Source: Schmidtea polychroa (lineage: Eukaryota). From it: a stretch of DNA of 64,000 nt. This document shows, in pieces, positions 11,299 through 64,000 of the stretch. Made by a program: the position numbers and the translations under genes. The notes beneath the pieces were generated by a model. It was given only the letters and a program-made list of their open reading frames with translations. It ran no database searches and had not been told where the DNA came from. Numbering within the stretch: the stretch's first letter is position 1; the number at the start of each line of letters is the position of its first letter. The DNA lies in NCBI GenBank assembly GCA_044892525.1, contig JBJFYX010000106.1:62001-126000 (forward strand). Direction: 5' to 3'.

Positions 11299-11409
11299 TT
11301 TTTATATTATCAATCAAATAGAGAATATTAGTTTTGAATTAATCAAGTCAGAATGGAAAAGTTGAAACTAATACAATAAATACAATTTACTATGAATATA
11401 AAAACATTA

Positions 11410-43200: not shown

Positions 43201-44746
43201 GTATATTTTATATATAGATAAGTTATATTTAATTCTTCCCATTTTTTTATTTAGTGTGCCGCGAACGAAAAAGTTTGGCAGACACTGCTCTATAGAAGGT
43301 TAAATAATATTAAATAAAAACAGTGAATTGTTACGATTGAAGGAATTATTTATAATAAGAATTATTCTTATAAGACACGTAAACTACTAAATTTTAAAAT
43401 TTTAAATCTAATTAATAAGATATTAATTGTTCAAAGATAAAAAAACTTGTCGATTGTTTTCATATTTTGAAAAAAAAATAAAAAATTTTTATAGTTTATA
43501 CAGTTATATTAGACTAATTGTGATAAAAAGTACCGATCAATATGATGCTATTATTTAAATAAAAAAAACATTCAAAAATTTTAAAATTTTATTCAAAAAA
43601 TTTACTATAAAAATCTAAATGCGTTCCCTAATGGACCATCGACTCAAGTTTGAGAATCACTGATATAATCTTATTGATTTTTTAATATAATAGATGTCTT
43701 TATATGTCTCGACACATTTGATTGTAGGATACGCAGTTGGGATCAAATAAATTGTTGAGTTAAATGTAACGCATGACTGAAACAGATTTTCAGTCCCAAG
43801 GACAGATATTATTTTTATAGATATAAAAGTGAAATTCATAATAATATATTGTATTAGGTTATATACTATATAAAATTATGCTATATAATATATAGCATAA
43901 TTTTACGCAATTAACATTTTTAGAACCACTGGTTTCCCTTCCCAGTGGTTCTCTTCGAAGTGGTTTTGATTCACGTGCTGTGCACATCATACGTGTCTGA
44001 AGGGTTATCATTTTATTAACTAATTCAGTATTTTAAATTAATCTAGTTTCTAGCAATTATTAAATATCAACCATTTATAATTTCATTCATATTTAGTTGA
44101 ATGATATTGAAGAATGGTTGAATTTTGAATTACCGATGAGAATCATTATGGGATATGACATTAAATGTTGTAATAATCATCTCATTAAATGCCCTAAACA
44201 GATTTCTCTTGCTCTTCATGTTCCCATTCTTGATAATTTAAACGGTAAATTTCAAGAGTTTAATGTGAATCCCATTACAATTCTTTAGGTCTTTCCATAC
44301 AAGTATTAGTGAATAATTATCTTGATGAAACCGAAATAGAAGATTATATTTGCGATGATTGTAACGAAGCAGAGTCGAAAGATATCGAAAAAAATTCCAA
44401 AATTAAAGCTAAAAAATTTTCATGCATCCTAAGTCCCCTGCCTCGTACAATTTGTGTCCATTTGCAACGAACTAGATGGATCAGGGGAGCGATGAAGAAA
44501 GTTACAGATCCAATAAGTATTAATATGAATTTAGAAATAACTTATCAAGATAATGATAATAAACAAAGAAAGAAACAATTTTCATTAAAGGCGGTTATAG
44601 TTCACCACGGATCCGTTTACTTCGGGCATTATGTGTGCTACAGACTGTGCGGTGACCAATGGTATTATACCAGTGATAGTACTGTGAAAAAAGTTAATAT
44701 CGATACTGTTATGTCAAAAGAACCTTATATTTTATTTTATGAATAG
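40259..44746 (+). CDS. Compact ubiquitin-specific protease (USP30-like), copy B. Exons 40259-40564, 44097-44244, 44289-44746
   Basis: Cys box RLINSASNCYMNSTLQ; GQQDSFELL; LPRTICVHLQR; His box IVHHGSVYFGHYVCYR...WYYTSDSTV...PYILFYE. Intron positions and phases match copy A. Confidence 0.87.
40831..41700 (-). pseudogene. IS630/Tc1-type DD34E transposase relic in the USP copy B intron
   Basis: VFLDE, LVMDNARFH, PQLNPIEEFFS; 34 residues between D2 and E once the frameshift near 41035 is corrected. Confidence 0.85.
41877..42111. mobile_element. piggyBac-type MITE
   Basis: TTAA-ccctttccatccc ... gggctggaaaggg-TTAA. Confidence 0.8.
42715..43060. mobile_element. TIR element, inverted copy of 7594-7945
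   Basis: Termini agggttattgcataataacgtga / reverse complement aggggtcattgcataattacgtca. Confidence 0.8.
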
Positions 44747-44953: not shown

Positions 44954-47900
44954 TGTTGGCATATGAGGGAGAAGAAAACTTACACAACCATTATCATACC
45001 GACCGCATTGGTTAGCTCAGACACCTCCCATACATACGCCAAATGATCATTTACATATTCCCACGCATGAGCCCGTGGTGATGTTCCACGTTGGTAGTGC
45101 CCATACGGGTCGGAGCTGACTAACAGGTGAGCCCCTATCTTAGGACTACTGATAGCCCGCTCGCGGTTCAGGTTCACTGGTGCCTTAGAAGGACTTACCC
45201 TTATTCATGCTTCAGTCTTGGTTCGATCCTGGTCCAAGGGAACGACCGTTAGCCTACTCGCTTTCCTTCCACAACACTAAATTATTTATTCTCAAAACCA
45301 AACATATGAAAATCTTTATAAATCGGAACCAAATAGACAAAATATATTAATACCGAATTGAAAATAATAAAAACATCATTACACTTATTAATACAACATC
45401 ATACGGACGGTTAGGATGCACAATATTAACGAAGTCTATCAGTCAATTCACGACTCGAACTACATTCAGGGTCACTCGCGAACTGTTTTAGTTGAAGTTT
45501 TCTCCGTCGGCAATTAACTCGTCGATGTCTACCGGCAATCTACAATCCGAGATAAACTTGATGCCGTTAGCTGGAATGATACGGAAAACTTCTTTCGAGG
45601 GAATCGTATGAGTGGTGGATATCTCTGCTATTGTCGTCTGCGCTGCGAACAAAGAAGCCTCGAGCGCCTTCATTGCATTTCTTCGTTTCTTAGTCTTCTC
45701 GGCCCTAGTTGGGTGGTTGCGTTTGCGTGATGGCGGATTTCCTCCAACAGCAGTAGATACTGTGGGTGCCACTAGGATCGGGGCCAGAATTGGGTCAGAT
45801 GGACCGCCTTTCATAGGTAAGTATCCTGACAGCACTGGGGCTGGGATGGGCGGTAGATGTGAACCATGCCCTCGACAAGCTGTAGTGGGAGTTGTAGATG
45901 GCTGGTGATGGAGAGGAAAGACATTCGATCCATCCAATACGGGATATTCGCGTACCCGCTTTGCTATTTCTGCCTCCGTGTAGACCTTATGGAGGGCTTC
46001 TGATTGTGCTTTTATTGTGAGCCTTTGGCATCGGCTTTCTTCTAGTAGGCTGTCCCTACAATGTTCTAACCGGAGGATCTTAGCTTTTTCCTCCTTCATC
46101 TGTGGCGGGGAGAACCACGTTCCTTCATAAAGATCTATCCTCTTCTTGAGGGCCCCTATATATAAATGAAGTTGAGAGATGTCCGAGTTCTTGTCAGCGC
46201 AAGAGAAACACGGACGAAGCTCTTGGGCGTTATTGGATGGTGTTGTCATCTAGAAAATTAATCATGGTTCAAACCGAATTGCGATACTTATTAAGGTATC
46301 CGGTATAAGAATTCATTAGTTATAATTCTGTAATTTTTCACTAAGTGTCTTAATTCATAAATTTCATGCTTTTTAATATCTCAGCTAAGTTTTCTCTAGT
46401 AATCCGTTTTAACGGTGAAATATATCTAGTTCCAAATTCTACCGAGACACTAAACTCAAAGATTTCACTCATCATACCACGCCACAGCATACAATAAAAC
46501 AACTTGTTTTCACACAATTCAACACTCCTCATTCACTCATTTAGGAAACAACATTCCGATCGATTTATTGATTCAAGATGATGGAGAGAAGAAAACGGGG
46601 GAATCCTCGATTTTAACTTATTCGATGATAAATTTACCTTTATCCTCGGGTCGGATAACTCATACTCATTGCATTTTAGTCGGCTGCTATAGTCGAACAT
46701 ATTTACGCTCGTGATCAATAGAAAGGAATAGCATCCGATTGTTGGGGATTTCCGTTTATTAATTTGTACCTACTTCGTATTGCTAAATCGCATGAGAAAT
46801 TTATCTCTCCTTATGGTGCCTGGTTATTCCGAATTTACGGAAAGGACTTTAAATATATACTATTAGCTAATTATATTATAATTTAAATTTAAAAATTCTT
46901 TTTTAAAAATCGCGCTACTTCTGTCGCCTTAGTGACGCCTACTAGTAGAGGTGTGCATTTTTCTTATATTCATTAACTGAGTCGGTATGCATCGTTGGAG
47001 TAACTCCACCTCGTGCTTTCATGTGTGTCTATTTCTATGTGATGGTGGGGAAAATTCGACGTCGTGTTAAATCGCAGTGGAGACGATCCATGATGGAGTG
47101 TGTAGGTGTGTGCGGTTATATAATATATTGGAATTATCGCTGAGTGTTCTACGAGCATCACCATGGAATAGTGCGTAGTAATCCGATGAGCAACAACTAA
47201 GCTAGAATTTTTAATCTACCTCGATCATTACGCAGCCAGTACAAGACAAGGTCTACCCACGCGTCAATTAGATTATTCCTCGTGGAAATTTATTATCGGT
47301 ATTATCTGATTTCGTTGGTCGTTCAATTCGATCAGTTATCATCTGCCGGCAATTCATTTCTCAAGTCACTGATAACTCCTATCGTGGTTCCTCAATTCAG
47401 TCAGTGAGCAATTGATAAATCTGTCAGCGATTTCTGTCATTTTTCCGTGAGTAATCTGATAACCTCTCCTACTTATTTACATTCTTTTCAGGGAAGATGA
47501 TATTATCAGCGATTCGAAGCTAATCACTTAACTTAAAAATACATTCGTCGACGGGTGTCATCGCTAACATATCGACGGTTCAGATTCTACTAGTATACCG
47601 AGGAAAACCATACTCTACGGGACTTACTGGATTTACACTCCAAGCTTCGTCGACAACATTCTCGTTCACTATCCCGACTGACGGGTTGACCGTTATGAAG
47701 GAATTTCGCCGATCTATGTGGATTCTTAATACGTTGATGAAATTGTCAATCTCAACTCCGAACTGTCCTCGGTTCGCAACTTAAATCTCCTCCGCTATTA
47801 TCAGGTGTATCGATGTGACTTGTTGAAGCTATGGAACTTACTAAGAATGATGCGAGCTCGGTGAAGAAATTTCATCTTTCCGCCTGTTATCCTAACCTAC

Positions 47901-49425: not shown

Positions 49426-50061
49426 TCACATGATCTTAAGGTTTGGAATGTTATTACTGTCTTGGTTGGTTGAATTCTGGGTCGGATGGCTGGTCGAAGT
49501 TGTTATCGTGGGGAGCTGTATTGTAACAGGTATTTGATCAGGAGATAGATTTTGTTGCATTTGGTCGGGTGGGTTTGGTTGTTGAAAGTGTACTGCTCGT
49601 TTATGCTTATTGTTTGGTCGTGGGTTCTTTCTTTCGGGTTTCTCGGATAGTGACTGGTTTCTTCTCCATGTCCGATAAATATCATACGCTTTCCAGATGA
49701 CTAGTGCGCAGATGATGATGGTTTCACTGATGGTAACATAGAGTAAGACTTGACTTTCTTTTGCTCCCTTCTTCATGATGATTTCCTTCAGGGATTGTTG
49801 GGTGGTTTGTTCTTGTAAGAGAATTTCGAGTTGTTCGATTTTTTGGGTTTGTAGATGGAGTTGCATTTGAAGTTTTTGCCAGACGGCTTTGTTCCAGCAT
49901 TGTTTCGGGATGTTGTTGGAGAGCTTTCTTTCGTTTTTCAGTTTGGTTAACGGGTTTTGCTGTTTCTCGGGATTCTCCCAGAGTGTTGGGATTGGCTGCC
50001 ACATGGGTGTTCCGTTTATCGCTATCATCATTATTGTCACCAGGGTTGCTCCGAACCACAT
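49426..50061 (-). CDS. Accessory type I membrane protein (211 aa)
   Basis: Signal-like MWFGATLVTIMMIAING, heptad Q/L ectodomain, TM VLLYVTISETIIICALVIW, basic stop-transfer segment, P/Q/T-rich tail. Confidence 0.75.
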   Translation of the reverse strand: MWFGATLVTIMMIAINGTPMWQPIPTLWENPEKQQNPLTKLKNERKLSNNIPKQCWNKAVWQKLQMQLHLQTQKIEQLEILLQEQTTQQSLKEIIMKKGAKESQVLLYVTISETIIICALVIWKAYDIYRTWRRNQSLSEKPERKNPRPNNKHKRAVHFQQPNPPDQMQQNLSPDQIPVTIQLPTITTSTSHPTQNSTNQDSNNIPNLKIM

Positions 50062-50116
50062 ACTACTATACGAAAATTTTTATTTACAATTATTTACATT
50101 GATCATTCATCTTTAA

Positions 50117-50818
50117 TTATTGCCGGGTTTTCTTTTTACGGGTTTTCTCGGATGTTCTCATCACTCTCGTTTCTGCTTTTATTACTCGTTTTCTCAATTC
50201 GGGTAGTACTTTTAATTGTTTGTCTCTTTCGTCTAACTGTTGCTTTAGGGTTATTATTTTTTCCTTTAGTGCTTTTATTTCTTGTGTTGCTCTTTCGAGG
50301 TTTTTATGGTTCATTATCTGTAGAAAATCATTTTCCCTTTCCCCGTCTTCTTCGTTGTCTATTTCTTGGTATTTGTTGTTCATTCTTTTCATTATTTCAC
50401 ATTCCTTTTGTTTCTGGTGTAGTTGGAGTTGTAACTCTTTCAGGCTTTCTTGGTGTTTCCGTGCCTCGGTTTTCCAATAATCACTAATCACTTCGTCGGC
50501 CTTTCTACTGGCCCTTTCCTGCCATAATTCTTCCGCGATCTTTTCCCAATTTCTCCCTCGCTTCCTTTGCTCGTGAAGCCATTCGTTTTCTTCCTCTACT
50601 TCTTTCTTTACTTCTTCTAACAGGGTGTATTCTCTTTTCAATACTTTAATCATTTTTCGATTATCTCTCCACCTTTCTACTAATCTTTCGTTTTCCTGTC
50701 TCTCCTCTTGTAATTCTTCCTTGATAGTTTTCTTCCTCTCCACTTCCTCAACTTCAATTTCTCCCTCTTCTAACTCGATTATAGATGTTATGATGGGTTG
50801 TCCGTTTTCAGTGTTCAT
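50117..50818 (-). CDS. Accessory coiled-coil protein (233 aa)
   Basis: Intact E/K/R-rich helical ORF. Confidence 0.75.
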   Translation of the reverse strand: MNTENGQPIITSIIELEEGEIEVEEVERKKTIKEELQEERQENERLVERWRDNRKMIKVLKREYTLLEEVKKEVEEENEWLHEQRKRGRNWEKIAEELWQERASRKADEVISDYWKTEARKHQESLKELQLQLHQKQKECEIMKRMNNKYQEIDNEEDGERENDFLQIMNHKNLERATQEIKALKEKIITLKQQLDERDKQLKVLPELRKRVIKAETRVMRTSEKTRKKKTRQ

Positions 50819-50991
50819 TTTCTATAATATATACATAATTAATAATTGCGCTACAGTGCGGCTTATACTTATACATTTATATGTTATTTTATAATCAGGG
50901 TTACAGTCCCTTTCATACTTTTACTGTACCATTAATTTTTTTGTTGGGATACAGGTCCCGATTTTTATATTTTTTATCTTTCCTTTCGTCT

Positions 50992-52029
50992 TTATACAAA
51001 GGTTTCTTCCTGGCCTACATATCCTTCATCGCTTTCTACTGACGTTTGTAATTGGAGTGCGATGGGATCAAATGGGATGTAGTACCGGGGAATCTGCGCT
51101 CTAAGTTCTTGGACTTCGTCTCTTAGCGCTCTTGACACGTTGAGTTCCTCGTCCAACAGGTAGGTTAAATACCTAGTTTCGTCATCCCGTACTTCTATCT
51201 GTTTTTCTAACTCTTCCGCCTTTTCGCCGTTCTCCCATTTTTTGATCTCCTTTTCGAGGTTCTTGATATTTTCATCATACATCTTCCTCTCGTTTTCTAA
51301 TTTCTTATTCTTACCGGCTAGCACTATGTTTCGTTGTTCTAGTGCCCCTTTGTAGCCGTTATTATCTCTCTCGAGGTCTGTCACCTTATTTACGAGTTCG
51401 ACGATTCTACCTGACTGTTGCAGGATCATCTCTTCCATGGCGGTATTCTCCTGTTCCTTTATAGACAGTTTCATGGCTAGATGCCTTTCAAATTCCATGG
51501 CCTTGGTCTGCCAGGTTTGACTTCGTGTTGCTATTTTCCTGAGCCTTCTTAGCTCTTCTCTCTGATCAAGGTTTTCCTCCCATTTCCCCTGCTCGGTTTC
51601 GTATTCTAATTTCTGAGGTAATTCCCTTATCTCCTTTTTAATTTCCCGATGTTGTCTTTTCCACTTTCTGGCTTCTGCCAAGAGTTGACGAGATTTCCTT
51701 TCCTCCTTTTGTTTTTCTATCTCTCGTTTTTTATTCTCGTCTGTCAGTCTTTTTCTCGATTCTTGTACTAGTTGCTTGAGGTAGTGACCGTGAGCTTCTT
51801 GTCGCGTATTTTCTAATGCTGCCCACTTGGCGGCTCTTTTACATGCCTCCGCCTCTGCTCGTAAGTTTTGCACCAACCACTGAAATTGGTGGTTTTCCCA
51901 TTCTCTTGCTTCTTCGAGGTAATTTCGTGTCTTATTTGATAATTGTGCCATTACTTTGGCCCATCTTTTTCGGTGTACTCCATTGATTTTTATTTCGTTG
52001 TTTGGGGCTTCTGTTTGTTCTTGTGTCAT
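50992..52029 (-). CDS. Accessory coiled-coil protein (345 aa)
   Basis: Intact E/K/R-rich helical ORF. Confidence 0.78.
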   Translation of the reverse strand: MTQEQTEAPNNEIKINGVHRKRWAKVMAQLSNKTRNYLEEAREWENHQFQWLVQNLRAEAEACKRAAKWAALENTRQEAHGHYLKQLVQESRKRLTDENKKREIEKQKEERKSRQLLAEARKWKRQHREIKKEIRELPQKLEYETEQGKWEENLDQREELRRLRKIATRSQTWQTKAMEFERHLAMKLSIKEQENTAMEEMILQQSGRIVELVNKVTDLERDNNGYKGALEQRNIVLAGKNKKLENERKMYDENIKNLEKEIKKWENGEKAEELEKQIEVRDDETRYLTYLLDEELNVSRALRDEVQELRAQIPRYYIPFDPIALQLQTSVESDEGYVGQEETFV

Positions 52030-52248
52030 CTTATCTGAATAACGAGATTATCAACTCAACGTCTCACATTTATATTTGTTCTATTATTTATTTATTGTTA
52101 CGAATATAGGTGGGTTGGGATTTTTTCTAGGTTTTCCGCTTAAATTTACCTTTAGTAGATTTGGGGTTTTTCTACACTATTATATAATATTTTACTGGAT
52201 ATATACGCCGATATTTACAATTTATTATATACAAAATTATTCATCTCA

Positions 52249-53637
52249 CTATTCAGTCCTACTCTTCCCATCTCGCCTCACCGCTATTTTTATGTATATA
52301 GTGTCGTTTCTCGTCATATCCTCCACTTTCCGCTGTAGGATAAAATTCGGTGCTCCGGTTGCTGGTCCTTCTTCTTCCAATGGCCTTTGATAACATACAA
52401 GGTTTCCTGCTGTATGGAAACTCTGCTCATGTGTACTTAGATAGTTCATCATTGCGAGGTCTATTTTTGCTTTGAACGGCCATTCTATTAACTCATCGTA
52501 TGGCCCTTTGCATATCAAGAAGAATATTGAGAAATGTGTTCCGTGCGCGCTTCCGTCCCCGTTGGGATATGCTTTCATTTTCATCTTATATCCGTTTTTC
52601 CATGAGTAGAAGGCTGGACTTAGTAATGTCGTGTCCTTTCCATTTCTCGCTCTCTGCATTTTCTCCTTTACTTCCGTTATTTTCCATATGTATGGAGCCG
52701 TTGGTATCAATTCATTGAGGTTCATTTCGCTTACTTTTTGATGTAGTTCTTTCACCATTTTGTTGCTAGTTTCTACTAGATCTGTTTGTATCTTTGTACT
52801 TAGTCTTGCCTCTTCGAATGCTTCTTTCTCTTGCAATAATTCTTTTACCAACGTTTTCAGCGAGGTTATTTCCTTTTCTAGGTTTTCGGTTTTCTTTTCG
52901 TTTTCTTGTAGTACCGTTGACCATATTTCTGCGTGTGTTGATACGTTCTCTGCTAGATGTTGGGGTAGTTCTCCTCGGTGTAATTGTTTCTGACATCCCC
53001 ATTTTCCTAACACACACATTATCTTTTTCCTTTCGCATTCTTTCAGATGTTGAGCGAGTTTTATTACTCCGGGTTTATCGCATTTGTTGGGACATTCTCC
53101 TCTGAATTCTGCGCACACTTTTTCCTCTTGTACGTTATGATGTTGACTCGTTAGTTTTCTCCAGGTGTCGGTTTCTCCGCAATATTCGCATCTTTCTAGC
53201 CTTTCCTTGCACCGACTTTGATGTTCTGTTTCTTCACTGGCTTTAATCTCTTCTTGGCAACGTTCGCAGTGACTGACTTTATGCTCACACTTCTCCATGT
53301 GTTGCCTCACCTCCCATATCACTCCTCGCCAATTGCATGGGGTGTTTTTACATCCTAGATTTGTATTCAACATATCTTTTACAGCTGCTTTATCTTCGTT
53401 TGTATCTCCCAAATTTGTTATCATTGTTTCTTTACATACTGGGCACCATTGTGGTCCCTTCTTTATTATTTCTTCTACACATTCTTTACACATTCTACAT
53501 CCGCATCTGGTTTGGTGAGGTTCTCTTAATAATCCCTTGCATATTCCACACTTCACATGGTCATGTATTCGAATTGTGGTGGATTTTCTGACTTGTTCGA
53601 CAATCTCCTTGAATTCTTCTCTTTGTCGCTTATCCAT
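52249..53637 (-). CDS. Full-length intronless TRAF-family protein (RING, TRAF zinc fingers, coiled coil, MATH)
   Basis: CGICKGLLREPHQTRCGCRMCKECV...CPVC RING; zinc fingers such as CPNKC...HLKEC; MATH motifs YIWKI, SPAFY, GYKMKMKAYPNGDG, GTHFSIFF, LIEWPF, DTIYIKI. Confidence 0.95.
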   Translation of the reverse strand: MDKRQREEFKEIVEQVRKSTTIRIHDHVKCGICKGLLREPHQTRCGCRMCKECVEEIIKKGPQWCPVCKETMITNLGDTNEDKAAVKDMLNTNLGCKNTPCNWRGVIWEVRQHMEKCEHKVSHCERCQEEIKASEETEHQSRCKERLERCEYCGETDTWRKLTSQHHNVQEEKVCAEFRGECPNKCDKPGVIKLAQHLKECERKKIMCVLGKWGCQKQLHRGELPQHLAENVSTHAEIWSTVLQENEKKTENLEKEITSLKTLVKELLQEKEAFEEARLSTKIQTDLVETSNKMVKELHQKVSEMNLNELIPTAPYIWKITEVKEKMQRARNGKDTTLLSPAFYSWKNGYKMKMKAYPNGDGSAHGTHFSIFFLICKGPYDELIEWPFKAKIDLAMMNYLSTHEQSFHTAGNLVCYQRPLEEEGPATGAPNFILQRKVEDMTRNDTIYIKIAVRRDGKSRTE

Positions 53638-53722
53638 TTCTATAATTATATATACATATATTCGTTACTGGTACAATTTCGTATTTTTATTTACAGTTAT
53701 TTACATTTGTTTTAGGTTATAT

Positions 53723-54082
53723 TTATTGACTGGAAGAGTCGGCCTCTTGTCCGCCCTCTTCCCTACTGGTTAACCATTCTGACCAGTCTTCTATCTCCTC
53801 TCTTTCCATTTCTTCAGCGATTCTCATTAATTCTTCTTCCTGTCCCTGGCTGTATCGCGATATTCGCACTATTTCCTGCTGCATTTGTTCTATCTTTATT
53901 CGCTGATCTTCGATTATTCTCACATAACTGAAACCTTTATTTAGACTTTCGACTAAGCTTCTTTGTGCAGCGAGTCCTTGTTCCTGTAAATTCGAAATCA
54001 CTTGGGTTAACATTGCACATTGCTGTTTCCACATCTCTTCGGTTGTCGTACTGTGGTTTACTTCATCGTTTATTCGCTCCAT
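53723..54082 (-). CDS. Accessory small coiled-coil protein (119 aa) with acidic Trp-containing tail
   Basis: Intact ORF with heptad pattern; EIEDWSEWL tail. Confidence 0.65.
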   Translation of the reverse strand: MERINDEVNHSTTTEEMWKQQCAMLTQVISNLQEQGLAAQRSLVESLNKGFSYVRIIEDQRIKIEQMQQEIVRISRYSQGQEEELMRIAEEMEREEIEDWSEWLTSREEGGQEADSSSQ

Positions 54083-54249
54083 TCTTAATTATATACACTT
54101 TTCAACCCTTATCTCATTTTAGTTTTATATTAATTGTCCCCATCATTATATAATATTGATACCGCGCTTATATAGAGATATAGAATACTGTTATATAAAT
54201 ACATATAATGTACTTACTTTTTACAATCTATATACAGTCATAATCCTTT

Positions 54250-55680
54250 CTATATTTGTGAGTTTGGAGGACGCTGAGCGTTCCAGGCCTCCACCCACTG
54301 TTCCTGTTTGATATTACTTGGTCTCTTTACCTGATGTTGAAAGTTTCTGATTCTGGCCATCTCCAGTTCTCCGCGATGCCGTCTATCTTTGATTATTTTT
54401 ATGGTTCCCCCCATTATGATTAAAAATGCCCCTGCTATTATTATGCCGCTGATCCACATCATCTGTTTCACGCTTATGATTTCCGCTTTTTCCTTGTTCG
54501 TTATTGTTGGTATTGCCTCTGTGCTTTTTAGATTATCATCTTTGTCATTTCCTTTTATCATTCCTCGTATTCTTGCTATTTCTTCGTTCATGCCTTCCTT
54601 TGCCATTTTTTGTATTTTCTCCATCTCTTCTTCTGACACGTAATTATCTTGATATTTCTCACTGGTTTTCTTGCGTTTTCCTTGCTCATCCTTTTCATCA
54701 TTGATTTTTCTTTTCTTCCCTCTTTTCCCAGGGTATCGTCGACATTCTCTCGCTGTATCGTTTCTCCAGATGCATACTGTGTATTCTTTTGGAGGTTGTT
54801 GCTGTGTTACATATTGTAGACAGTCTTCACCCGGTCCTAATCTTGAAATGCAGACTTTGTGTTCTTTTCTTGGCTGGAGTTGCGTTATCACTACCTCACC
54901 TCCTTTTTTCAGGTGTACCTCCTTCCCTTTGACTTTAGTTATTCTCTTCCCGTCTCGATTCCGGTATGCTTCTTGTATTCTTACTTCCGTTATCGGTTCT
55001 GTATCTTCATTTATTAATACTAGTCTCCGATATGCTCTCGACATACATCTTCCTAGTATGCACCTTTCTTTTAGATCCCATTCTTCTTTTAAATCCCATT
55101 GTTGCTCTCGTACTTGCTTCTTCTTTTCTTGCTTTAGTTCCTCCTCCTTGTTATCTTTGTTTTCCGTTTCCTTGGCTTCTTTTATCGTTCTCATTCCTCC
55201 GTGAGCTGTTATCATTTCTACCATTGTTAGTATGAGTATCATTACCATCATATTTGTCTCCATTTCCTTGTTGGTAAAAAGTAGGCATACCCTCTGTTTT
55301 CCATTATTCGTCTTTTCCTCTTCCTTTGTTCGGTTTCCCGGGTTATTTTCCTCTTTTCTCATACTCGCGTCGTTATTTTCTTGCTTATTCTCCTCTGATT
55401 TCTCTTTCCCGTTTTGACCTGTTTCGTCATTATCGTCGTCTTTATAGTCTTTATCTCCCCCGCTGTCGTTTGAAATGTCGTCCTCGACATTTATGTCGTT
55501 CAATAATCTGCGATATGCTGTTAACACTCTATTTCTTGCTAATTTCGCTTCGAATTCGAACTCCTTTCTGCCTGTTGCTGCATGTCTCTTTCTGTTCCAT
55601 TCTTTTACTAATTCTCTTAATTGTATTCGACGATTTTTCCGATTCGCTTTTGTTCGTTTTGATTTTGCGTGAATTTGAGG
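54250..55680 (-). CDS. C-terminal segment of the polyprotein: acidic linker, internal signal peptide, FN3-like ectodomain, TM, short tail
   Basis: Frame is open from about 55740 and joins the ankyrin frame by a 1-nt shift near 55672. MMVMILILTMVEMITA signal; VVITQLQPRKEHKVCIS FN3-like strands; MMWISGIIIAGAFLIIMGGTI TM. Confidence 0.72.
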   Translation of the reverse strand, partial: PQIHAKSKRTKANRKNRRIQLRELVKEWNRKRHAATGRKEFEFEAKLARNRVLTAYRRLLNDINVEDDISNDSGGDKDYKDDDNDETGQNGKEKSEENKQENNDASMRKEENNPGNRTKEEEKTNNGKQRVCLLFTNKEMETNMMVMILILTMVEMITAHGGMRTIKEAKETENKDNKEEELKQEKKKQVREQQWDLKEEWDLKERCILGRCMSRAYRRLVLINEDTEPITEVRIQEAYRNRDGKRITKVKGKEVHLKKGGEVVITQLQPRKEHKVCISRLGPGEDCLQYVTQQQPPKEYTVCIWRNDTARECRRYPGKRGKKRKINDEKDEQGKRKKTSEKYQDNYVSEEEMEKIQKMAKEGMNEEIARIRGMIKGNDKDDNLKSTEAIPTITNKEKAEIISVKQMMWISGIIIAGAFLIIMGGTIKIIKDRRHRGELEMARIRNFQHQVKRPSNIKQEQWVEAWNAQRPPNSQI

Positions 55681-58600
55681 TCTTCTCTGTTCAATACGAT
55701 CATTATGATTTTCGGAGTTCCTCCTTTTGTCAGCGTATTTTTAACCATGGCATTTTCCCCGTTTTCATAGAACTCATTTATGTTTATTGCATATGTATTA
55801 CTTTGTGGTATTTTCCAGGTTAACAATAACTTCATGGCTTCTAAGCTCTTCCGTATCGTGTTCCATTGGAATTGTGACGTGTTTTTGCAGATATTTTCTA
55901 CCTCAGTTCTTGTAGCATTTTTACAAATGAATCTAATCCTTTCCAGGTTTGGTTGTATTGTTGCCCAATCCATGGTAGAATTTCCCTCGTTTGATTTCTC
56001 GTCAAGTCTCTAACCTGATTGATGTAGTATGTGTAAGGTTTTCGGGTGTATATTTGTTATTGCTGCATACATCATTGCTGTTTCTCCTTGTTCATTTTTT
56101 GCATTAGATTCTTCTCCGAAGTCTCTAAGAATTCTTATGATGGTTATTGCTCTGTTTTCTTTTGCTGCTAATATTGCTTGTTGTAATGGTGTTCTTGAAT
56201 CTTTCGTCGGTAAGGTGAATGCTAGTGGTATGAATGTTTTCATTTTTCCTATGTCTAGATTTGTGGTCTGATCTCTTGCGTAGGTGTGTACTGTTTTTGT
56301 TATTTTTGCTAGTATCGCCTCATCGGATAGATCTTGCATTTCTTCAAAGAATACTTCTTTAGCCTTACGTACTACTATCTCTTGGTCGGAGTTTATTGTC
56401 TTTGGTTTACTTGTTGTTGCTATATCGGTTATTATTTGATCGGTTTGTTTCTCAGACTCTCTTGCTGTTATTTTCTTGATTTTTATCCTTTTCTTGTTCG
56501 AACTGTTAATGCGTTCTTCCGCTGTAAGCACTTGAATAATACTTAGGTAGTTTTCTCGGATGTTGTTCATAGTTTCCATCATATATAATACGTTCACAGT
56601 TTCCCAATATTTTACTTGTACTTTATCGGTAAATTGAGATATGGCTTTTTCGAAGTTTGTAATTCGTTTTCTGATTAGTTGTTCGTCTTTGTGATTTGAA
56701 AACTTTATGCCACGTTGTAGTAGTTGATTTGGAATTTCGAATAGGTGATGTCCTCTCATCGCTTCTCTCATCAAGGTGTTTTCTCCTTTGGTAAATGTTT
56801 CGTTTATATCTACCATATAATCGTTTTTGATCGGGTTCCTCCATGCAATTAGTAATCCAGTAATTGTTATTAATTTCTCTTTGATCGCCGTTAATAGCCC
56901 GTCATACATGTTTCCTATCTCCCTATTATCCTCGTACGATAATAGATCTACTAAGATTATGAAGGCTTCCGTACTTTTCCCTTCGATTGCATGATGTAGT
57001 GCATTTTTCCGGTTGTGATCTTGTGTGGTTATCTTTGACCCAGTTTCAAGTAATGCGATAATAATATCTTTAGCTTTATCCCGATTGGCTGCTATCATTA
57101 GTGGGGTGTAACCTTGGTTATTTTCTTGATCCGTTGAAACGTTACAATCGCGAAATGCTTCAATTGTCTCTAGTATTTGTTCATTATTACCAACCTTTAA
57201 AAGTTTGTGTAGTGGTGTATCTCCGTAATGGTCTGTGATCGTGAATAATATGGGCCATTGACTTTTAACTACCCTGAGCAATGGGTGTGTTCTTTCTCGG
57301 TTTGCATAGTTTTCTATCATGGTTAGCAGACCTCCCAATATCTCAAAATCCAATTTATCTTTAGCCCATCCGGGTATTTTAGCTTTTACTTCTTTTATGA
57401 TTTTCTCGGCTTCTGATGGTTGTAGCCCCGATCGATTACCCGTTGGTTTGTTTATCTGCTGTAACATATTGATTCTATACGTTTGTGATCTGGTTGTTAA
57501 TGTTCGCCCTTCTGGCTGATTGGTGGCGGTTTTCGGAATTGGCTTACATCGTGCAACATTTACGTATATTGGTCTTGTAAAAGGGTTGTTCACTAATCGT
57601 ACTCTTACATTAGTTTCTCCGACAAATAAAATCTCATACGGCCCTTTACCGTTTCGTTGTAATTTTTTGGTGGTTCCTGGAATTAATTCTGGTGTTTCGA
57701 TCATCACCCAATCGCCTGTTTGAAACGTATGCTGTTTGACGTTTTTCTTTCTATCATGTAAATCTTTGTAACTTTCTTGATAAAATTTTATATTCAATCC
57801 TGCAGTTTCCCAGATTTCCTGCATTCTTTCCTTGAACTTGGTTACATAATCGTCTATTTCCATGTATTGTGATATTGGTGGCTGATATTCTAAGTCCATT
57901 GGCATATTACATTCTCTACCATACATCAATTTGAATGGACTCATCTTTGTGGACGCGTGAATCGACATTCTGTAAGCCATTAAACATAATTTTATATACT
58001 CGTCCCAGTCGCGTTGATGACGATCGACATAATTTGATAACATTTGAATCAAGGTTCCGTTGAATCTTTCTGTCATACCATTTGTTTGTGGGTGGTACGG
58101 TGATGTTCTTAATTTTGCAATCTTGAAGTAATTGGTTACTTCGCTCATTATTTCACTCATGAAATTTGTTCTCTGATCAGTTAATATCTGTTTTGGTGTT
58201 CCATATCGACAGCATATCTCCTCTACCAGTATTTTCGCGATTGTTTTTGCTTTCTGGTCTGCCATAGCGAATGCTTCAGGGAATTTTGTCAAATAATCTG
58301 TGATTACCAATATATATATATTTCCTCTATCGGATTCTGGTAGTGGACCGACTACGTCCATAGATATCATTGTCATTGGTTCTGCCGGTACTGGCATTGG
58401 CTTTAACGGTGCTTTCCATTTCGTTCCCGTGTTTTTTCTGGTCGCGCAAGTTATACAGTTCTTTACCCATTCCGTTACATCCTCAATCAATGTAGGCCAA
58501 AAATACTTTTGTTTCATTCGGGCTAACGTCTTCTTCGATGACATATGTCCTCCGAGTCTTCCGTCATGATATTGCGTTAGCAAATCTTTACGTCTATTTT

Positions 58601-58790
58601 CTGGAATGCACATCAGTCTCTTTTCCCCATCCATTATCAATAACCAATCTTTCTCGATAATATATCGATGTCGATGTTTATCCATGTGTTCTTTCAGTTT
58701 TTGATCTTTCTCGTATACCTCTGCTTTTCCAGTTTTTACATATTCGATAATTTGTTTCAACTCGGCATCATCTTGCTGGTCTTTTCGTAA
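55617..58790 (-). pseudogene. Integrase fused to ankyrin repeats; in frame with pol across TAA 58791-58793, with an internal TAG at 56010-56012
   Basis: HHCC (YHDGRLGGH...CITC), SMDVVGP, LTDQ, GMTERFN, GPY. Ankyrin motifs GDTPLH, GYTPLMIAA, KNALHHA, RTPLQQA, GETAMMYAA, G*RLDEKSNEGNSTMDWA. Confidence 0.92.
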
Positions 58791-61700
58791 TTAGCAAAAA
58801 TCTAAATCTTCCGCTACCATTAGACATATCCGTTGCATTTCATGATCTACTAAATCTGGAAAGATAAACCTTGACATACAATCCGCATTGGCATTCGCTC
58901 TTCCTGCTTTGAATTTTATGAACGGTGAATATTCTTGCAACTGCATTGCCCATCGCATCAATCTACTTGAAGCTTCTTTGTGCTGTCCGAGCCATACTAA
59001 TGGTTGGTGATCTGTTGTGATACATATTTCGTGTCCCCATAACAAATATCGAAAATGTTTTATCGCTTGTATTATAGCTAACGCTTCTCTTTCTGTTACT
59101 GAATAGTTTTTCTCATGCTTTTTAAACGTTCTGCTGTAATAGCCGATTACTCTCTCCTTTCCTTCTTCATCGAGTTGTCCTAATATTGCTCCGGCTGCAT
59201 ATCCACTTGCATCGGTTGCTAACAAGAACGGTTTCTTGAAATCAGGATGTACTAGTATTGGGGCTTCAATTAATTTATCTCGCAATGTTTCAAAGGCTTT
59301 TTGCTGTTCTGCTCCCCAGATAAATGAAATGTCTTTTTTCACTAATTCCTGGATTGGTTTCGCAATACTTGCATAATTTTTAATGAATTTCCGATAATAT
59401 CCGCATAATCCGAGGAATTCTTGAACTTGGGTGACAGTTTTCGGTGCTGGACAGGTTTTTATTTTTTCTATATTTCTTGGATCTGGTTCTTTGCCTTTTG
59501 CTGACACTATGTGTCCTAAGAACGTAACTTTTTCTTTTGCCCAATCACATTTGGATGGTTTAAGCTTCAATTTCCATTGTCGTAATCGGATGAACACGTT
59601 TCTAATGTCTTCCAAATGTTGTTCGAAAGTTGCTGAATATATTAATAAATCATCAATATATACCATACATTGCTTGATCCCGTGTGTGACGAAATTCATG
59701 CATCTCTGAAATGATGCTGGGGCATTGGTCAGTCCAAATGGCATTTTCCTGAATTGATATAGATCTCGGCCCAATGTGAATGCTGTTTTCTCTTTGTCTT
59801 CCTCCTTGACTTTGATCTGCCAATATCCGCTCTTTAGATCTAAAGACGTAAAATATGCGGCCCCCTGTAGCATAAGTAACATCTCATTGATGTCTGGTAA
59901 TGGGTATGTGTCTCTTTTTGTTACTGCATTTAATTTCCGATAATCGATACAGAATCTCTGAGTACCGTCTTTTTTCTTTACCATGACTACTGGAAATTGC
60001 CATGGCGAACAACTTGGTTCGATCACTTGTGCATCTAGCATTTTTTGTACTTCTGCTTCGGCTATCTCTTTTTGCTTCTCTGCTAGTTTGTATGGTCGTA
60101 ACGCAATTGGAGTTTCGTCTATTAATGGTATTGCGTGTAATGTGACATCGCATGCTCCCAAATCTAAATCCGAAATTGCGAATATATCTTTATATTCTAT
60201 TAGTAATTGTTGAAGTCTTTCCTTTTCTCTTTCCGTTAGCAAGGTGCTATCAATTATCCATAATTCGTCAGCTTTCGTTGTTTCGTTGGTGATTTTTGGT
60301 AATTCAATGTCTATCATGGGTGTCAATCTACCCAATCTTTCATTTTCATATATGATCTTGTCTTCCTCCTCGAAATTTGTGATGTTAATTGGTATTTCCC
60401 CTTCTTCATTTATTGTTATTATTTCTCTTGCTAATGGTAATTCTCGTCGTTTTTCGAATGATTTGCTTGGCTCGAAAATGGCTTCTCCTTCCATTCCTGC
60501 ATCCACTTTTATTTGACATATCATCTGTGATTTTGCTGGCACAATTATTTTCTCCGGACATCTAATTATTGCGTTCATCTTGCATATTCTACCCATTTTA
60601 TCTTTTAGACACATTGTTGTTAAATCGATTACTACTTCCTTGAACAATTCCGGCATTAAATCCGTTCCGATTATACATGGTTCGCTCAGTTTGGGTATCA
60701 CCGCTAGATACGTTTCAATTTCATTATCTTGATATCGTAACGTAGTCCACCATCTTCCTACTACGTCTACGGTTTCTTTACTGCATGCAATAATATGGAT
60801 AGTTGTTTGTTCGATATCTTTCCAACATTTAGTGGGTATTTGGTTTATTGCTATTGCTGATACGTTTGCTCCGGTATCTATCATTGCGCTTGTCTCTTTC
60901 CCATTGATTTGGATCATGACTGTTACTGCCGCGCCTCCTGGTGAACTCATTACTGCTATTGTTCTGACGTCATCAGCTTGGTCTACGCTTTTCGTTCTTC
61001 GGATTGGCATATAGTTCATTCCTGGTTGACTTGGTAACTGTGGATACATATTTTGTGTCATGGTCAAAGCTGTTTGTTGTCCAACGATATCTGGTGGTAT
61101 ATAACTTCCGTTGGCTATCCAGGTATTTGTTTTTTCTTTCTCCCAATATGGCGCTGTTTCTATTGGCTTTTCATTCGGGTTTCTACTTGGGTATGGATAT
61201 TTGTCATTCCCATTGTCGTCATCATCACTATCGCTGCTGTTTGATCGATTTCTAAATCTGTCTAAGAATTTTGGTTTGTTCTTCTTTAATTGCGCTCTCG
61301 TTGCTTCATCATACATCGTTTTCCGAAATCGTCTGCCAACTTCCTCGTCAGTCCCTTTTATTTTTGTCAGTATTTTGATTAATCGTTTTATTCTGTGTAT
61401 GTCTTTGGAATGACCGTGCAACACCATTGTTTTTGCCAAAAATGGTAGAAAACCTACTATCAATTTCCAATTCACTTTCTTTTCTCGCTTGTATATATCG
61501 AAGCATGCCAACATTTGGGTCAATATTACCCTGACGATCTGAATAATTAAGATGATTCCCAATATTCCTGCCATCATTTGACCGAACACTAGAAATCTTC
61601 CCCACATTGCTTTCATCATGTTTGACGTGGCTTGTTGAAAATGATCCGGTGATAATAATAGTTCATAGTTGGGACTTGATTGGAAATTCGTTCCCCCAGT

Positions 61701-62789
61701 TATGGTAACCATATTTGATAAAATGGATTCCCGTCTTGCTGGGAATAATACGTTTAATCGTGCCGTTTCTAAATCCTCTGGTGAGTACATACCGGCCTTT
61801 GACACATCAATTGGTTTGAAATCCTGTTCTGTTGCAAGCTCTATTAATCCAAACTTTTTAGGTTCTTGCACTTCAACTTTTAACGGTAACATTATCCATT
61901 TCCCATCGGGTTTTTCATATAATGGCCCGTATGCATTTGAACAGTTAAAGGTGTTCGGATAAAATCCAATTGGGTTCATAATTCTGGTGACGGGTTGAAC
62001 GAATCTGTTCCGCCCTTTGTAACTAATTTCTAATTCGTTTGCACATTTCCCTGGTGGAATTGTGGGTTTTCTTGGCAGTCGTGCAAATGTCTTGGTACAT
62101 GCATATGTATACATTACCTCTCCCACCATTCTACCAAAATGTCCATCCGGTAACGGGAGTGATGTCATTGTGTTATCTGGGTGTGTTATTGCGATGGCTA
62201 ATTTTGTTTTTAGTATTTCTTTATTCAATGAACAGTCATTTTGTATAAGATCGTAATATACTTTTTGCATTGTCGTTTGTCCTCGATGGAATAGGAAGTC
62301 CATCTTGTTATTGGCATACAAGTACAATTTTACGTCTTCCGTTGCTACCTTTTCCACTGCTCTGTCTATTACTTGCCTTGACATGTAGATACCTGCGTAG
62401 TTCGTCCGGTATACTATACTGTCACATTTGGTAGTCTCTTTTTCTCTGATGAATTTCATACCGATATCTGGATCATCTGTAATTAATGCCGTTGGTGTTT
62501 TTTGTGTTGTGAGTCTCTTTTCTTTGGGGGATGGTGGGACTGGTTTCCCATTTCGCATCCTTACGTTTCCATTCTCTTCGTCGTCATCTTCGTTTTCATA
62601 AATTTCTCCTTTTACTTCATTGAACAAAGCACTTTTTAACAACTGGAGTCGGCATTTTTGGGTGTTGGCTTCATATATTATAGTCGAAATTCCCGTTCTA
62701 CACACGTTTTCCGTAGCTCTGCATGCTGGGTTGGTTTTCATTTGATAATTATTTGCGTCGAATTGCGCTTCGTATTCCTTCAAATCCAC
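58791..62789 (-). CDS. Polyprotein segment: glycoprotein C-half and TM, aspartic protease, RT, RNase H
   Basis: TM WGRFLVFGQMMAGILGIILIIQIV (about 61500-61605); MIDTGANVSAI (about 60875); FCIDYRKLN, MPFGLTNAP, YIDD (about 59655); LATDAS, EREAL, TDHQPL, NADCMS. Confidence 0.95.
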   Translation of the reverse strand: MDLKEYEAQFDANNYQMKTNPACRATENVCRTGISTIIYEANTQKCRLQLLKSALFNEVKGEIYENEDDDEENGNVRMRNGKPVPPSPKEKRLTTQKTPTALITDDPDIGMKFIREKETTKCDSIVYRTNYAGIYMSRQVIDRAVEKVATEDVKLYLYANNKMDFLFHRGQTTMQKVYYDLIQNDCSLNKEILKTKLAIAITHPDNTMTSLPLPDGHFGRMVGEVMYTYACTKTFARLPRKPTIPPGKCANELEISYKGRNRFVQPVTRIMNPIGFYPNTFNCSNAYGPLYEKPDGKWIMLPLKVEVQEPKKFGLIELATEQDFKPIDVSKAGMYSPEDLETARLNVLFPARRESILSNMVTITGGTNFQSSPNYELLLSPDHFQQATSNMMKAMWGRFLVFGQMMAGILGIILIIQIVRVILTQMLACFDIYKREKKVNWKLIVGFLPFLAKTMVLHGHSKDIHRIKRLIKILTKIKGTDEEVGRRFRKTMYDEATRAQLKKNKPKFLDRFRNRSNSSDSDDDDNGNDKYPYPSRNPNEKPIETAPYWEKEKTNTWIANGSYIPPDIVGQQTALTMTQNMYPQLPSQPGMNYMPIRRTKSVDQADDVRTIAVMSSPGGAAVTVMIQINGKETSAMIDTGANVSAIAINQIPTKCWKDIEQTTIHIIACSKETVDVVGRWWTTLRYQDNEIETYLAVIPKLSEPCIIGTDLMPELFKEVVIDLTTMCLKDKMGRICKMNAIIRCPEKIIVPAKSQMICQIKVDAGMEGEAIFEPSKSFEKRRELPLAREIITINEEGEIPINITNFEEEDKIIYENERLGRLTPMIDIELPKITNETTKADELWIIDSTLLTEREKERLQQLLIEYKDIFAISDLDLGACDVTLHAIPLIDETPIALRPYKLAEKQKEIAEAEVQKMLDAQVIEPSCSPWQFPVVMVKKKDGTQRFCIDYRKLNAVTKRDTYPLPDINEMLLMLQGAAYFTSLDLKSGYWQIKVKEEDKEKTAFTLGRDLYQFRKMPFGLTNAPASFQRCMNFVTHGIKQCMVYIDDLLIYSATFEQHLEDIRNVFIRLRQWKLKLKPSKCDWAKEKVTFLGHIVSAKGKEPDPRNIEKIKTCPAPKTVTQVQEFLGLCGYYRKFIKNYASIAKPIQELVKKDISFIWGAEQQKAFETLRDKLIEAPILVHPDFKKPFLLATDASGYAAGAILGQLDEEGKERVIGYYSRTFKKHEKNYSVTEREALAIIQAIKHFRYLLWGHEICITTDHQPLVWLGQHKEASSRLMRWAMQLQEYSPFIKFKAGRANANADCMSRFIFPDLVDHEMQRICLMVAEDLDFC

Positions 62790-64000
62790 TGGATATTACC
62801 TCCCCTCTGATCGTATATGTGCCTCCGTTACAGGATCCATCGGTCGATTTTACCCGTCCGGCTACATAGATGCTTTCGGTCTTAATCATCCCGCTTTGTC
62901 CGTGTATTGTTACTCCATCCCGGATTCTCATTGCTCCGGTTCTAAAAAGCTCTTTGCAGTCTTCCCGTTGTATAGGTACTATTTCTTTATCTAATCCGGG
63001 TAGTATGAGAGTTGAATAAGAATATTGTCCACAATAATATGCCAACACTTTCTTTGATACTACGCATTCTCTAGCTTGTGTTCGAATAAAATCTGATTCT
63101 TGATATACGTGATAGGAGACTTTCTTCTTTACTATATCTAATTTATTCGGAGATGCTTGTCTGCATTCCTCTATATCTCTCAGGGAGTATTTTTCTCTTA
63201 ATACCGAATTGTCACAGTCGTAGATTGTAAATCCAGCTGCTCCGCTGGTACAGAGCATCCATATCATCATGGTCATCATTAGTGAATTAATCGACGCTTT
63301 TCTGCTGGCTGGGTCCTTTAATGGCAATTCCCATTCTAGCTCGTTTAATAATTTTTTCAACCGAATTTGCATTGATCTCTCTTGCTCGTTTTTCCGTGGT
63401 GCTTGTATGAGTCTTTTCCATCCACCGGCGCGGATAATATGTGGTTCGATTGTAGTTTCAATGATTGTAACTGTCATTTCTACATGATTTGCGAATTGTT
63501 TGTTAGGTATTTTTCTTGCTGCTAATCCCATCAAATTGTACATTAGATACGTTAACACTACTAAATGATGTTCGTCGTCGTTTGCGTTTAAAGTTAATTG
63601 TTCAATTACTCTTCTTGTCTCTTCCCAATCGGTTTTAGTGGTTTTTGTCTTCTCTTTGATTAATTTCGGAATTATTCCGGATATTGTATTCCATAGCTGT
63701 CTGGCATCTACGCTTGCTACTTTTCGTTGCCATAACCGTCTCAATTGCGGGTTCGTTATTATTAACATATCCTTTACTAGCTCTCGTATCCATTTTTCAC
63801 CTCTCTCGATTGTTGGTTGGGCTTCTTTTAGGTCCCATACTATTTTATCCAGTTTCTCTAATCTGACTTGTCCTTGTTCTTGTTTTAGTTGTTCTCTAGT
63901 TTTAAATTCTGGTTTTTCTCCTTGTTTCTTGGGTCTTCCTTTTGCCCGTTTCTCCATCATTGTTCCAGCTTCTCTTGTCTTTTCGTAATTCGGGTTTCTC
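62749..64000 (-). CDS. Polyprotein segment: Bcl-2-like domain, internal signal peptide, N-half of a gB/chuvirus-like glycoprotein. Open past the window edge; shifts into the 58791-62789 frame near 62790
   Basis: Frame is open to 63999 (RNPNYEKTREAGT-MMEK). HIIRAGGWKRL is BH2-like. LMMTMMIWMLCTSGAAG/FTIYDCD signal and cleavage site; Cys pattern YYCG...DGSCNGGTY. Confidence 0.85.
   Translation of the reverse strand, partial: RNPNYEKTREAGTMMEKRAKGRPKKQGEKPEFKTREQLKQEQGQVRLEKLDKIVWDLKEAQPTIERGEKWIRELVKDMLIITNPQLRRLWQRKVASVDARQLWNTISGIIPKLIKEKTKTTKTDWEETRRVIEQLTLNANDDEHHLVVLTYLMYNLMGLAARKIPNKQFANHVEMTVTIIETTIEPHIIRAGGWKRLIQAPRKNEQERSMQIRLKKLLNELEWELPLKDPASRKASINSLMMTMMIWMLCTSGAAGFTIYDCDNSVLREKYSLRDIEECRQASPNKLDIVKKKVSYHVYQESDFIRTQARECVVSKKVLAYYCGQYSYSTLILPGLDKEIVPIQREDCKELFRTGAMRIRDGVTIHGQSGMIKTESIYVAGRVKSTDGSCNGGTYTIRGEVISSGFEGIRSAIRRK

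What the first reader, a model, noticed from the sequence alone, without database searches (positions are those of the whole stretch)
55670..57250. Ankyrin repeat array fused in frame to the integrase C-terminus
Seen: after the GPY motif and a linker there are two ankyrin clusters (about 57245-56700 and 56200-55680), with internal similarity (YMVDINETFTKGENTLMREAM versus YAININEFYENGENAMVKNTL). Established: Gypsy integrase tails often carry targeting modules such as chromodomains, and ankyrins act as IkB-like inhibitors in polydnaviruses and poxviruses. Inference: this is either a tethering module for target-site choice or a cleaved vAnkyrin working alongside the TRAF.
Basis: partly seen in the sequence, partly recalled or inferred. 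Interest (0 to 1): 0.7.

Follow-up and report, generated by a model that had tools for sequence, protein, structure and literature searches.

The report
Retroelement ankyrin cassette, IkB-like, likely cleaved
A giant virus-like jumping gene carries, behind its integrase, a doubled ankyrin protein that is probably cut free and resembles the inhibitors of the immune switch NF-kB; ankyrins in such elements were already noted, but this likely origin and role were not found in the papers searched.

Summary
The ankyrins are real and in the integrase frame (minus strand). The element is a Burro-like Gypsy retrotransposon (Bcl-2-like, mononegavirus-type env, PR-RT-RH-IN, TRAF), a kind in which ankyrins are already reported. 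The tail is two old copies of a ~235-aa capped ankyrin unit (57362-56660, 56339-55634; 22% identical).

Tethering is unlikely. A junction matrix trained on relatives ranks a site just after the integrase 2nd of 3,267 positions. Only 1 of 150 integrase relatives has ankyrins after IN, and there two protease domains lie between.

An IkB-like origin is supported indirectly. Bcl-3 is the best natural PDB match for all three other family members tested. The best viral fold match, for two models, is the planarian nidovirus polyprotein, whose ankyrin domain is published as closest to planarian Rel-ankyrin proteins.

Best reading: a protease-released accessory protein that probably damps host Rel signalling. 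Cleavage and binding are inferred, not shown; the host and sister copies were not identified.

The parts
57462..58790 (-). Gypsy integrase (H2C2 zinc finger, catalytic core, GPY at 57644, SH3-like end near 57545); preceded by an in-frame TAA at 58793-58791 in this copy
   Evidence: Pfam; coordinates; 47.6% identical to P0013 over 420 aa, 58.8% to P0030 over 274 aa
57462..57476 (-). Predicted retroviral-protease junction (RINML) ending the integrase; exact scissile bond not determined
   Evidence: Rank 2 of 3267 with a matrix trained on 8 relatives' RH/IN junctions; rank 5 with a 2-site matrix
56660..57362 (-). Ankyrin unit 1: two-helix cap, three clear repeats (57221, 57110, 57008), then about two degenerate repeats (one at 56780)
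   Evidence: Pfam; AlphaFold model mean pLDDT 74.6, residues 1-140 at 80-97; family profile 64.8 bits
56340..56659 (-). Spacer of about 106 aa, no homologue found, only weak junction-like sites (best rank 23)
55634..56339 (-). Ankyrin unit 2, old duplicate of unit 1, interrupted by a TAG
   Evidence: family profile 51.2 bits read through with X
56010..56012 (-). In-frame TAG in the middle of unit 2; unit 1 and four relatives are open at the aligned position
54250..55740 (-). 496-codon ORF in another frame, overlapping the end of the ankyrin frame (TAA 55619-55617): signal-like segment at 55251, ectodomain, transmembrane segment at 54447; possibly the former end of the polyprotein
   Evidence: hydropathy; same layout ends 6 relatives' polyproteins but no sequence homology found
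52249..53637 (-). Separate TRAF gene (RING, zinc fingers, coiled coil, MATH)
   Evidence: Pfam; best hit 25% to a snail TRAF3-like protein
58791..62795 (-). C-terminal part of env (Monjiviricetes fusion, TM at 61577) in frame with protease, RT and RNase H
   Evidence: Pfam
62749..63999 (-). Bcl-2-like stretch (about 63618-63418) and N-terminal part of env; frame changes within env near 62795-62749; element runs off the window
   Evidence: Pfam Bcl-2 E 0.087, below cut-off; fusion domain E 9.7e-22

Best explanation
The ankyrins are an accessory cassette in the polyprotein of a Burro-like env-bearing Gypsy element. The slot behind the integrase is variable in this clade. Steps: (1) shown: the unit is translated in frame with IN and was duplicated long ago; (2) inferred, about 0.8: the element's aspartic protease cuts just after IN, so the ankyrin protein is released and IN works without it; (3) inferred, about 0.7: the unit descends from the C-terminal inhibitory ankyrin domain of a host Rel-ankyrin (NF-kB p105/IkB-type) gene, the same lineage as the planarian nidovirus ANK domain; (4) inferred, about 0.45: lacking a signal-response degron, it binds host Rel-homology factors as a stable IkB mimic and, with the element's TRAF and Bcl-2-like proteins, damps immune or death signalling in the cells where the element replicates. 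This genomic copy is defective and would not make the intact product.
For: Junction matrix from relatives only: 5 of the top 9 of 3267 sites fall at domain borders (env signal 1, IN/tail 2, RH/IN 4, env/PR 6, PR/RT 9). In P0026 a near-identical motif after IN directly precedes a protease domain. P0013, the best full-length integrase match, reads IN, protease, degenerate protease, one ankyrin unit, signal, ectodomain, TM in one ORF. A profile built without window sequence scores the two units 64.8 and 51.2 bits, the 16 generic ankyrin proteins at most 25.5. Bcl-3 is top PDB hit for P0179 and P0180 and top natural hit for P0181, each in register with its first repeat; p100 and IkB-alpha align from their first repeat too, weakly. 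Foldseek viral top hit is the planarian nidovirus polyprotein for the window model (E 6.8e-7, TM 0.65; next 5.2e-5, 0.53) and for P0181 (E 4e-12; next 3.2e-6). That ANK domain is closest to planarian RHD-ANK proteins (PMC6211748 passages). No DSGxxS degron in the tail.
Against: The window's own unit 1 does not single out IkB proteins: Bcl-3 is 56th of 60 listed by sequence, 29th by Foldseek, 48th by VIA-align among near ties. The training rule for the matrix was chosen after seeing the window motifs, and one training site looks mis-picked. In relatives the best post-IN site ranks in the top 10 in only 5 of 10. The two fold searches share alignment rows, so they are not independent, and the matched range in the nidovirus model is not shown. 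No flatworm RHD-ANK sequence was in hand; a recalled Rel-like look of P0181's N-terminus found no support. Repeats 4-5 are degenerate and low in confidence. The host is not identified, and planarian RHD factors are divergent with only tentative immune roles (PMC13563047 passages).
Confidence: 0.5

Rival explanations
1. The released ankyrin protein is a protein-binding adaptor with a non-Rel partner, for example bringing a host substrate to the element's TRAF E3 ligase, or acting at membranes while still joined to the terminal membrane protein.
For: Ankyrin folds are generic binders (top VIA-align Z values tied at 12-13 across unrelated proteins). A RING-bearing TRAF lies 2 kb downstream. In P0013 the unit is followed by signal and TM segments, and the nidovirus ANK is predicted to share a protein with a TM domain (PMC6211748). 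Junction sites after the units are weak (ranks 23, 35).
Against: The family's best natural matches are IkB-type and in register. No evidence that relatives with the unit also carry TRAF (no TRAF hit among the 150, which are single ORFs).
Confidence: 0.27
2. Captured host sequence carried along without current function.
For: This copy has two in-frame stops and at least one frame change. The unit is patchy: window and P0013 are not sisters in the integrase tree, 1 of 6 relatives with a complete tail has it.
Against: Two copies at 22% identity, with DNA identity no higher than codon shuffles (0.476 against 0.506), kept an almost gap-free alignment and an open frame; the 130 codons after the TAG are open where a non-coding frame has 146 stops in 1666 codons. 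That points to long protein-level selection and recent damage.
Confidence: 0.12
3. The ankyrins stay on the integrase and tether it to chromatin or a transcription factor for target-site choice, as chromodomains do.
For: In frame and only about 60 aa after the integrase's end. IkB-family members such as Bcl-3 are nuclear and bind DNA-bound Rel dimers (recalled), so an uncut fraction could tether.
Against: Junction site rank 2 of 3267 between IN and ankyrin; two protease domains between them in P0013; absent after IN in 149 of 150 relatives; clade polyproteins end in a membrane protein, so IN must be cut from its tail somewhere.
Confidence: 0.08
4. The TAG is a conserved, programmed stop and the protein normally ends there.
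For: Only this copy of the family was available, so conservation could not be excluded.
Against: The stop lies mid-repeat in a duplicate that continues in register for 126 codons; unit 1, P0013, P0179, P0180 and P0181 are open at that position; the copy has other breaks.
Confidence: 0.05

Closest known systems
Burro / GYPSM1 giant Gypsy retrotransposons of planarians (PMC6431247 section 7, citing Jurka 2007 and Grohme 2018)
   Same: Bcl-2-like region, mononegavirus-type env in frame before PR, PR-RT-RH-IN, ankyrin repeats, MATH/TRAF, accessory ORFs, AT-rich surroundings.
   Different: TRAF is a separate full-length gene downstream (in ORF1 in Burro1, upstream ORF in Dugesia tigrina). Number and position of ankyrins in Burro1 not seen (figure not held). 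No Burro sequence was available for comparison; Gag, BIR and the 5' LTR lie outside the window.
ANK domain of planarian secretory cell nidovirus (PMC6211748)
   Same: Best viral fold match for two family models; domain of about 210 aa (11360-11570) in a cleaved polyprotein; proposed IkB mimic taken from a host RHD-ANK gene.
   Different: RNA nidovirus, single unit, three repeats recognised; 19-23% identity; here doubled and behind an integrase.
IkB family (Bcl-3, NF-kB p100 C-terminus, IkB-alpha) and polydnavirus vankyrins (PMC3359993 abstract; PMC3757122 listing)
   Same: Stack starting in register with IkB repeat 1; no degron found; viral carriage.
   Different: Extra N-terminal helical cap, degenerate later repeats, made from a retroelement polyprotein; Rel binding is shown for vankyrins, untested here.
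Chromovirus integrase chromodomain (e.g. P0139)
   Same: Extra domain encoded in frame after GPY.
   Different: Chromodomain stays on IN (recalled); here a junction site intervenes and the domain is not conserved in the clade.

Membership tests
Burro-like Gypsy elements | Gypsy order PR-RT-RH-IN | tested here: met
   Pfam
Burro-like Gypsy elements | Mononegavirus-type env upstream of and in frame with PR | tested here: met
   PF24664 E 2e-46 in the same ORF as PR; env itself split by a frame change in this copy
Burro-like Gypsy elements | Bcl-2-like domain before env | tested here: inconclusive
   Pfam Bcl-2 E 0.087, 13.8 bits, below cut-off, in the expected place
Burro-like Gypsy elements | Ankyrin repeats and MATH/TRAF domain | tested here: met
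   TRAF position differs from the published elements
Burro-like Gypsy elements | dUTPase-like region between PR and RT | tested here: inconclusive
   about 200 aa between PR and RT but no Pfam dUTPase hit
Burro-like Gypsy elements | Gag, BIR, SUMO-like domains, paired LTRs, total size over 25-30 kb | not testable with these tools
   5' part lies beyond 64000; no long direct repeat inside the window
Burro-like Gypsy elements | Sequence kinship to Burro1/GYPSM1 and planarian host | not testable with these tools
   No Burro sequence or eukaryotic genome collection available; host only inferred from architecture, AT content and the nidovirus match
IkB mimics (vankyrin-like) | Ankyrin stack of IkB/p105 descent | tested here: inconclusive
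   Met for three family members and via the nidovirus link; window unit alone does not rank IkB first; no tree possible
IkB mimics (vankyrin-like) | No signal-response degron | tested here: met
   No DSGxxS or DSGxxxS in the tail (motif recalled)
IkB mimics (vankyrin-like) | Binds Rel-homology dimers and blocks signalling | not testable with these tools
Integrase targeting modules (chromodomain type) | Module directly joined to IN across the lineage | tested here: not met
   1 of 150 relatives has ankyrins after IN, with two protease domains between
Integrase targeting modules (chromodomain type) | Stays on mature IN | tested here: inconclusive
   Strong predicted junction after IN; prediction only
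Integrase targeting modules (chromodomain type) | Insertion-site bias | not testable with these tools
   single copy, ends not both in the window

The most novel reading that the evidence does not exclude
An env-bearing LTR retrotransposon lineage encodes a true IkB mimic taken from the host's Rel-ankyrin gene, of the same lineage as the one in the planarian nidovirus, cut out of its polyprotein and here doubled. With TRAF, Bcl-2-like and a terminal membrane protein it gives a retroelement a poxvirus-like immune-evasion kit, and points to which flatworm Rel factor is antiviral.
Probability: 0.4. Interest if true: 0.75.

Novelty: new variant of a known kind. Interest (0 to 1): 0.5.

Why it matters
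Ankyrins in Burro elements have been listed but, in the papers searched, not explained. If two unrelated viruses (a nidovirus and a retroelement) both carry the same host inhibitory domain, that argues for an antiviral role of flatworm Rel factors, which is unresolved (PMC13563047). It supports the view of Burro elements as proviruses that manipulate their host, and gives a direct test: bind the unit to the seven planarian RHD proteins. It also shows that an in-frame domain after GPY need not be a targeting module.

Tried and rejected
Search for long polyproteins with the tail (1622-4630 aa): 10 generic ankyrin proteins, no sister copy. No close copy of this family among the best 150 representatives, so conservation of the TAG in sister copies stayed unchecked. 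Source names of the ten closest relatives could not be looked up, so their hosts are unknown. ORF496 against relatives' terminal membrane proteins: no homology by BLAST or profile; continuation of the duplication into ORF496 not supported (score 24 against mean 32). A regular-expression count of the junction motif (4 seen, 0.2 expected) was set aside as post hoc. First junction matrix caught only 2 of 9 training sites. In one search my check window for the env/PR site was misplaced (rank 568); the candidate 4 residues earlier ranks 6. Cap-only profile gave no signal. P0181 N-terminus as a Rel dimerisation remnant: no support. ESM Atlas gave only generic ankyrin clusters. IkB proteins did not stand out in PDB fold searches, which does not exclude them. 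P0126 has ankyrins but at its N-terminus, before two pol copies, so it was not counted. TRAF search did not identify the host. A purine-tract scan for the 3' LTR start printed nothing. Grohme 2018 not held; no supplement for PMC6431247; figures of both key papers (Fig. 2A; Fig. 6 and S16) not seen and may bear on novelty. No complex prediction was run.

Full report
Observation. On the minus strand one frame, 58790-56013 (926 aa), holds a Gypsy integrase and ankyrin repeats. The tail is a tandem duplication of a unit of about 235 aa, 57362-56660 and 56339-55634. The two copies align almost without gaps at 52 of 232 identities; none of 1000 shuffles reached the score. DNA identity is no higher than codon shuffles, so the duplication is old. 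Unit 1 and four relatives are open at that position. The copy has other breaks, a TAA between RNase H and integrase and a frame change in env, so the TAG is most simply damage. Sister copies were not found, so this is not tested directly.

Context. Upstream lie a weak Bcl-2-like stretch (E 0.087), a Monjiviricetes fusion glycoprotein in frame with the protease, RT and RNase H. Downstream lie a membrane-protein ORF, a full TRAF gene and several coiled-coil-like ORFs. This matches the Burro/GYPSM1 elements of planarians, for which ankyrin, MATH/TRAF, Bcl-2-like and in-frame env are reported (PMC6431247, section 7 read whole; figure not held; the primary papers not held). The host is inferred, not shown: flanks are mostly 22-34% GC and S. 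mediterranea is over 70% A/T (PMC11410931 passages).

Relatives. Of the best 150 representatives found with the integrase-ankyrin ORF, one, P0013, has ankyrins after the integrase. It reads RT, RH, IN, protease, degenerate protease, one ankyrin unit, signal, ectodomain, TM (the second protease is my reading of the sequence). The window's integrase clade has 11 relatives in a 33-sequence tree (top 30 by score plus two added). Six of them run to a terminal TM segment and one of these six has the unit; P0025, P0026 and P0034 have an extra protease after IN. The window is sister to P0030, whose record ends 68 aa after IN without ankyrin, not to P0013. The slot behind IN is therefore variable cargo. 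That ORF496 is the window's terminal membrane protein rests on layout only (negative).

Cleavage. A matrix trained on the RH/IN junctions of 8 of 9 relatives ranks the site after the window's integrase 2nd of 3267 positions; 5 of the top 9 sites are at domain borders. The picking rule was chosen after I had seen the window motifs, one training site looks wrong, and a stricter rule gave rank 5 from 2 sites. In relatives the best post-IN site is in the top 10 for 5 of 10. P0026 has a near-identical motif between IN and a protease. No strong site lies between the two units (best rank 23). Cleavage is thus likely but predicted only.

Origin. A profile search found three more members, P0179-P0181, among 9 hits. 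A profile from these and P0013 scores the window units 64.8 and 51.2 bits against at most 25.5 for 16 generic ankyrin proteins. Bcl-3 is the top PDB match for P0179 and P0180 and the top natural match for P0181, always from repeat 1; for the six-sequence profile it is third among natural proteins, and for the window unit alone 56th of 60 listed. The model of unit 1 matches the planarian nidovirus polyprotein best among viral structures (E 6.8e-7, TM 0.65); the P0181 model does so by six orders of magnitude. The matched segment would contain the published ANK domain if segments are numbered from 1; the aligned range is not shown. That domain's closest homologues are C-termini of planarian RHD-ANK proteins, and it was proposed as an IkB mimic (PMC6211748 passages and supplement passages). 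PDB fold searches gave generic ankyrins in near ties.

Mechanism. Most likely the protease releases the ankyrin protein, which acts as a degron-less IkB mimic on host Rel factors, as polydnavirus Ank proteins do (PMC3359993 abstract). S. mediterranea has seven divergent RHD factors with only tentative immune roles (PMC13563047 passages) and many TRAF-like genes (PMC7586133 passages). Confidence 0.5. Rivals: adaptor with another partner or membrane-bound role 0.27, inert cargo 0.12, integrase tether 0.08, programmed stop 0.05.

Novelty. Ankyrins in Burro elements are known. Searches (listings) found no paper on their cleavage, duplication or link to IkB or the nidovirus domain; the nidovirus paper has no occurrence of 'Burro' or 'retrotransposon'. 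Subscription papers, Repbase and figures were not seen. PMC13238120 (passages) adds nothing. Verdict: new variant of a known kind, interest 0.5.

Noticed in passing
P0013, P0022, P0023, P0024, P0026, P0031 (C-terminal parts); window 54250-55740: Polyproteins of this clade end in a second membrane protein (signal, ectodomain, TM) after the integrase. Several share a C..L.PDT.Y.I-like motif that looks fibronectin-III-like to me (recalled, no Pfam hit).
   Followed up: partly
P0013, P0025, P0026, P0034, P0024: Extra aspartic protease domains, after the integrase or doubled before RT; P0026 has three protease motifs.
   Followed up: partly
P0013, P0020, P0024, P0025, P0026, P0030, P0031, P0034 just after the integrase; window about 57500-57480: A YxLRxR-like motif ends these integrases; it recalls the foamy-virus chromatin-binding motif (recalled) and may be the real tether. 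It is degenerate in the window.
   Followed up: no
window 49426-54088: Four further accessory ORFs on the element strand (121, 351, 234, 217 aa), coiled-coil-like by eye, one with a TM segment; no Pfam family above cut-off. Another 253-aa ORF at 45488-46249.
   Followed up: no
window 15097-18140: Cluster with a Pox_A32-type ATPase, an integrase fragment and small ORFs; looks like a decayed Polinton or related element (label recalled).
   Followed up: no
window 11410-11979, 22100-22504 (minus); 40253-40603, 44264-44746 (plus): Two divergent ubiquitin-specific protease genes in opposite orientation (UCH hits for the C-terminal exons); the element ends just beside one of them.
   Followed up: no
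window 8060-10386: Integrase-core ORF 8708-10027 flanked by similar 36-nt repeats; probably a DNA transposon.
   Followed up: no
window 26774-27605; about 4000-4190: 31-nt tandem repeat array; a run of N marks an assembly gap.
   Followed up: no
P0126: Ankyrin repeats at the N-terminus ahead of two pol copies; possibly a chimeric gene model.
   Followed up: partly
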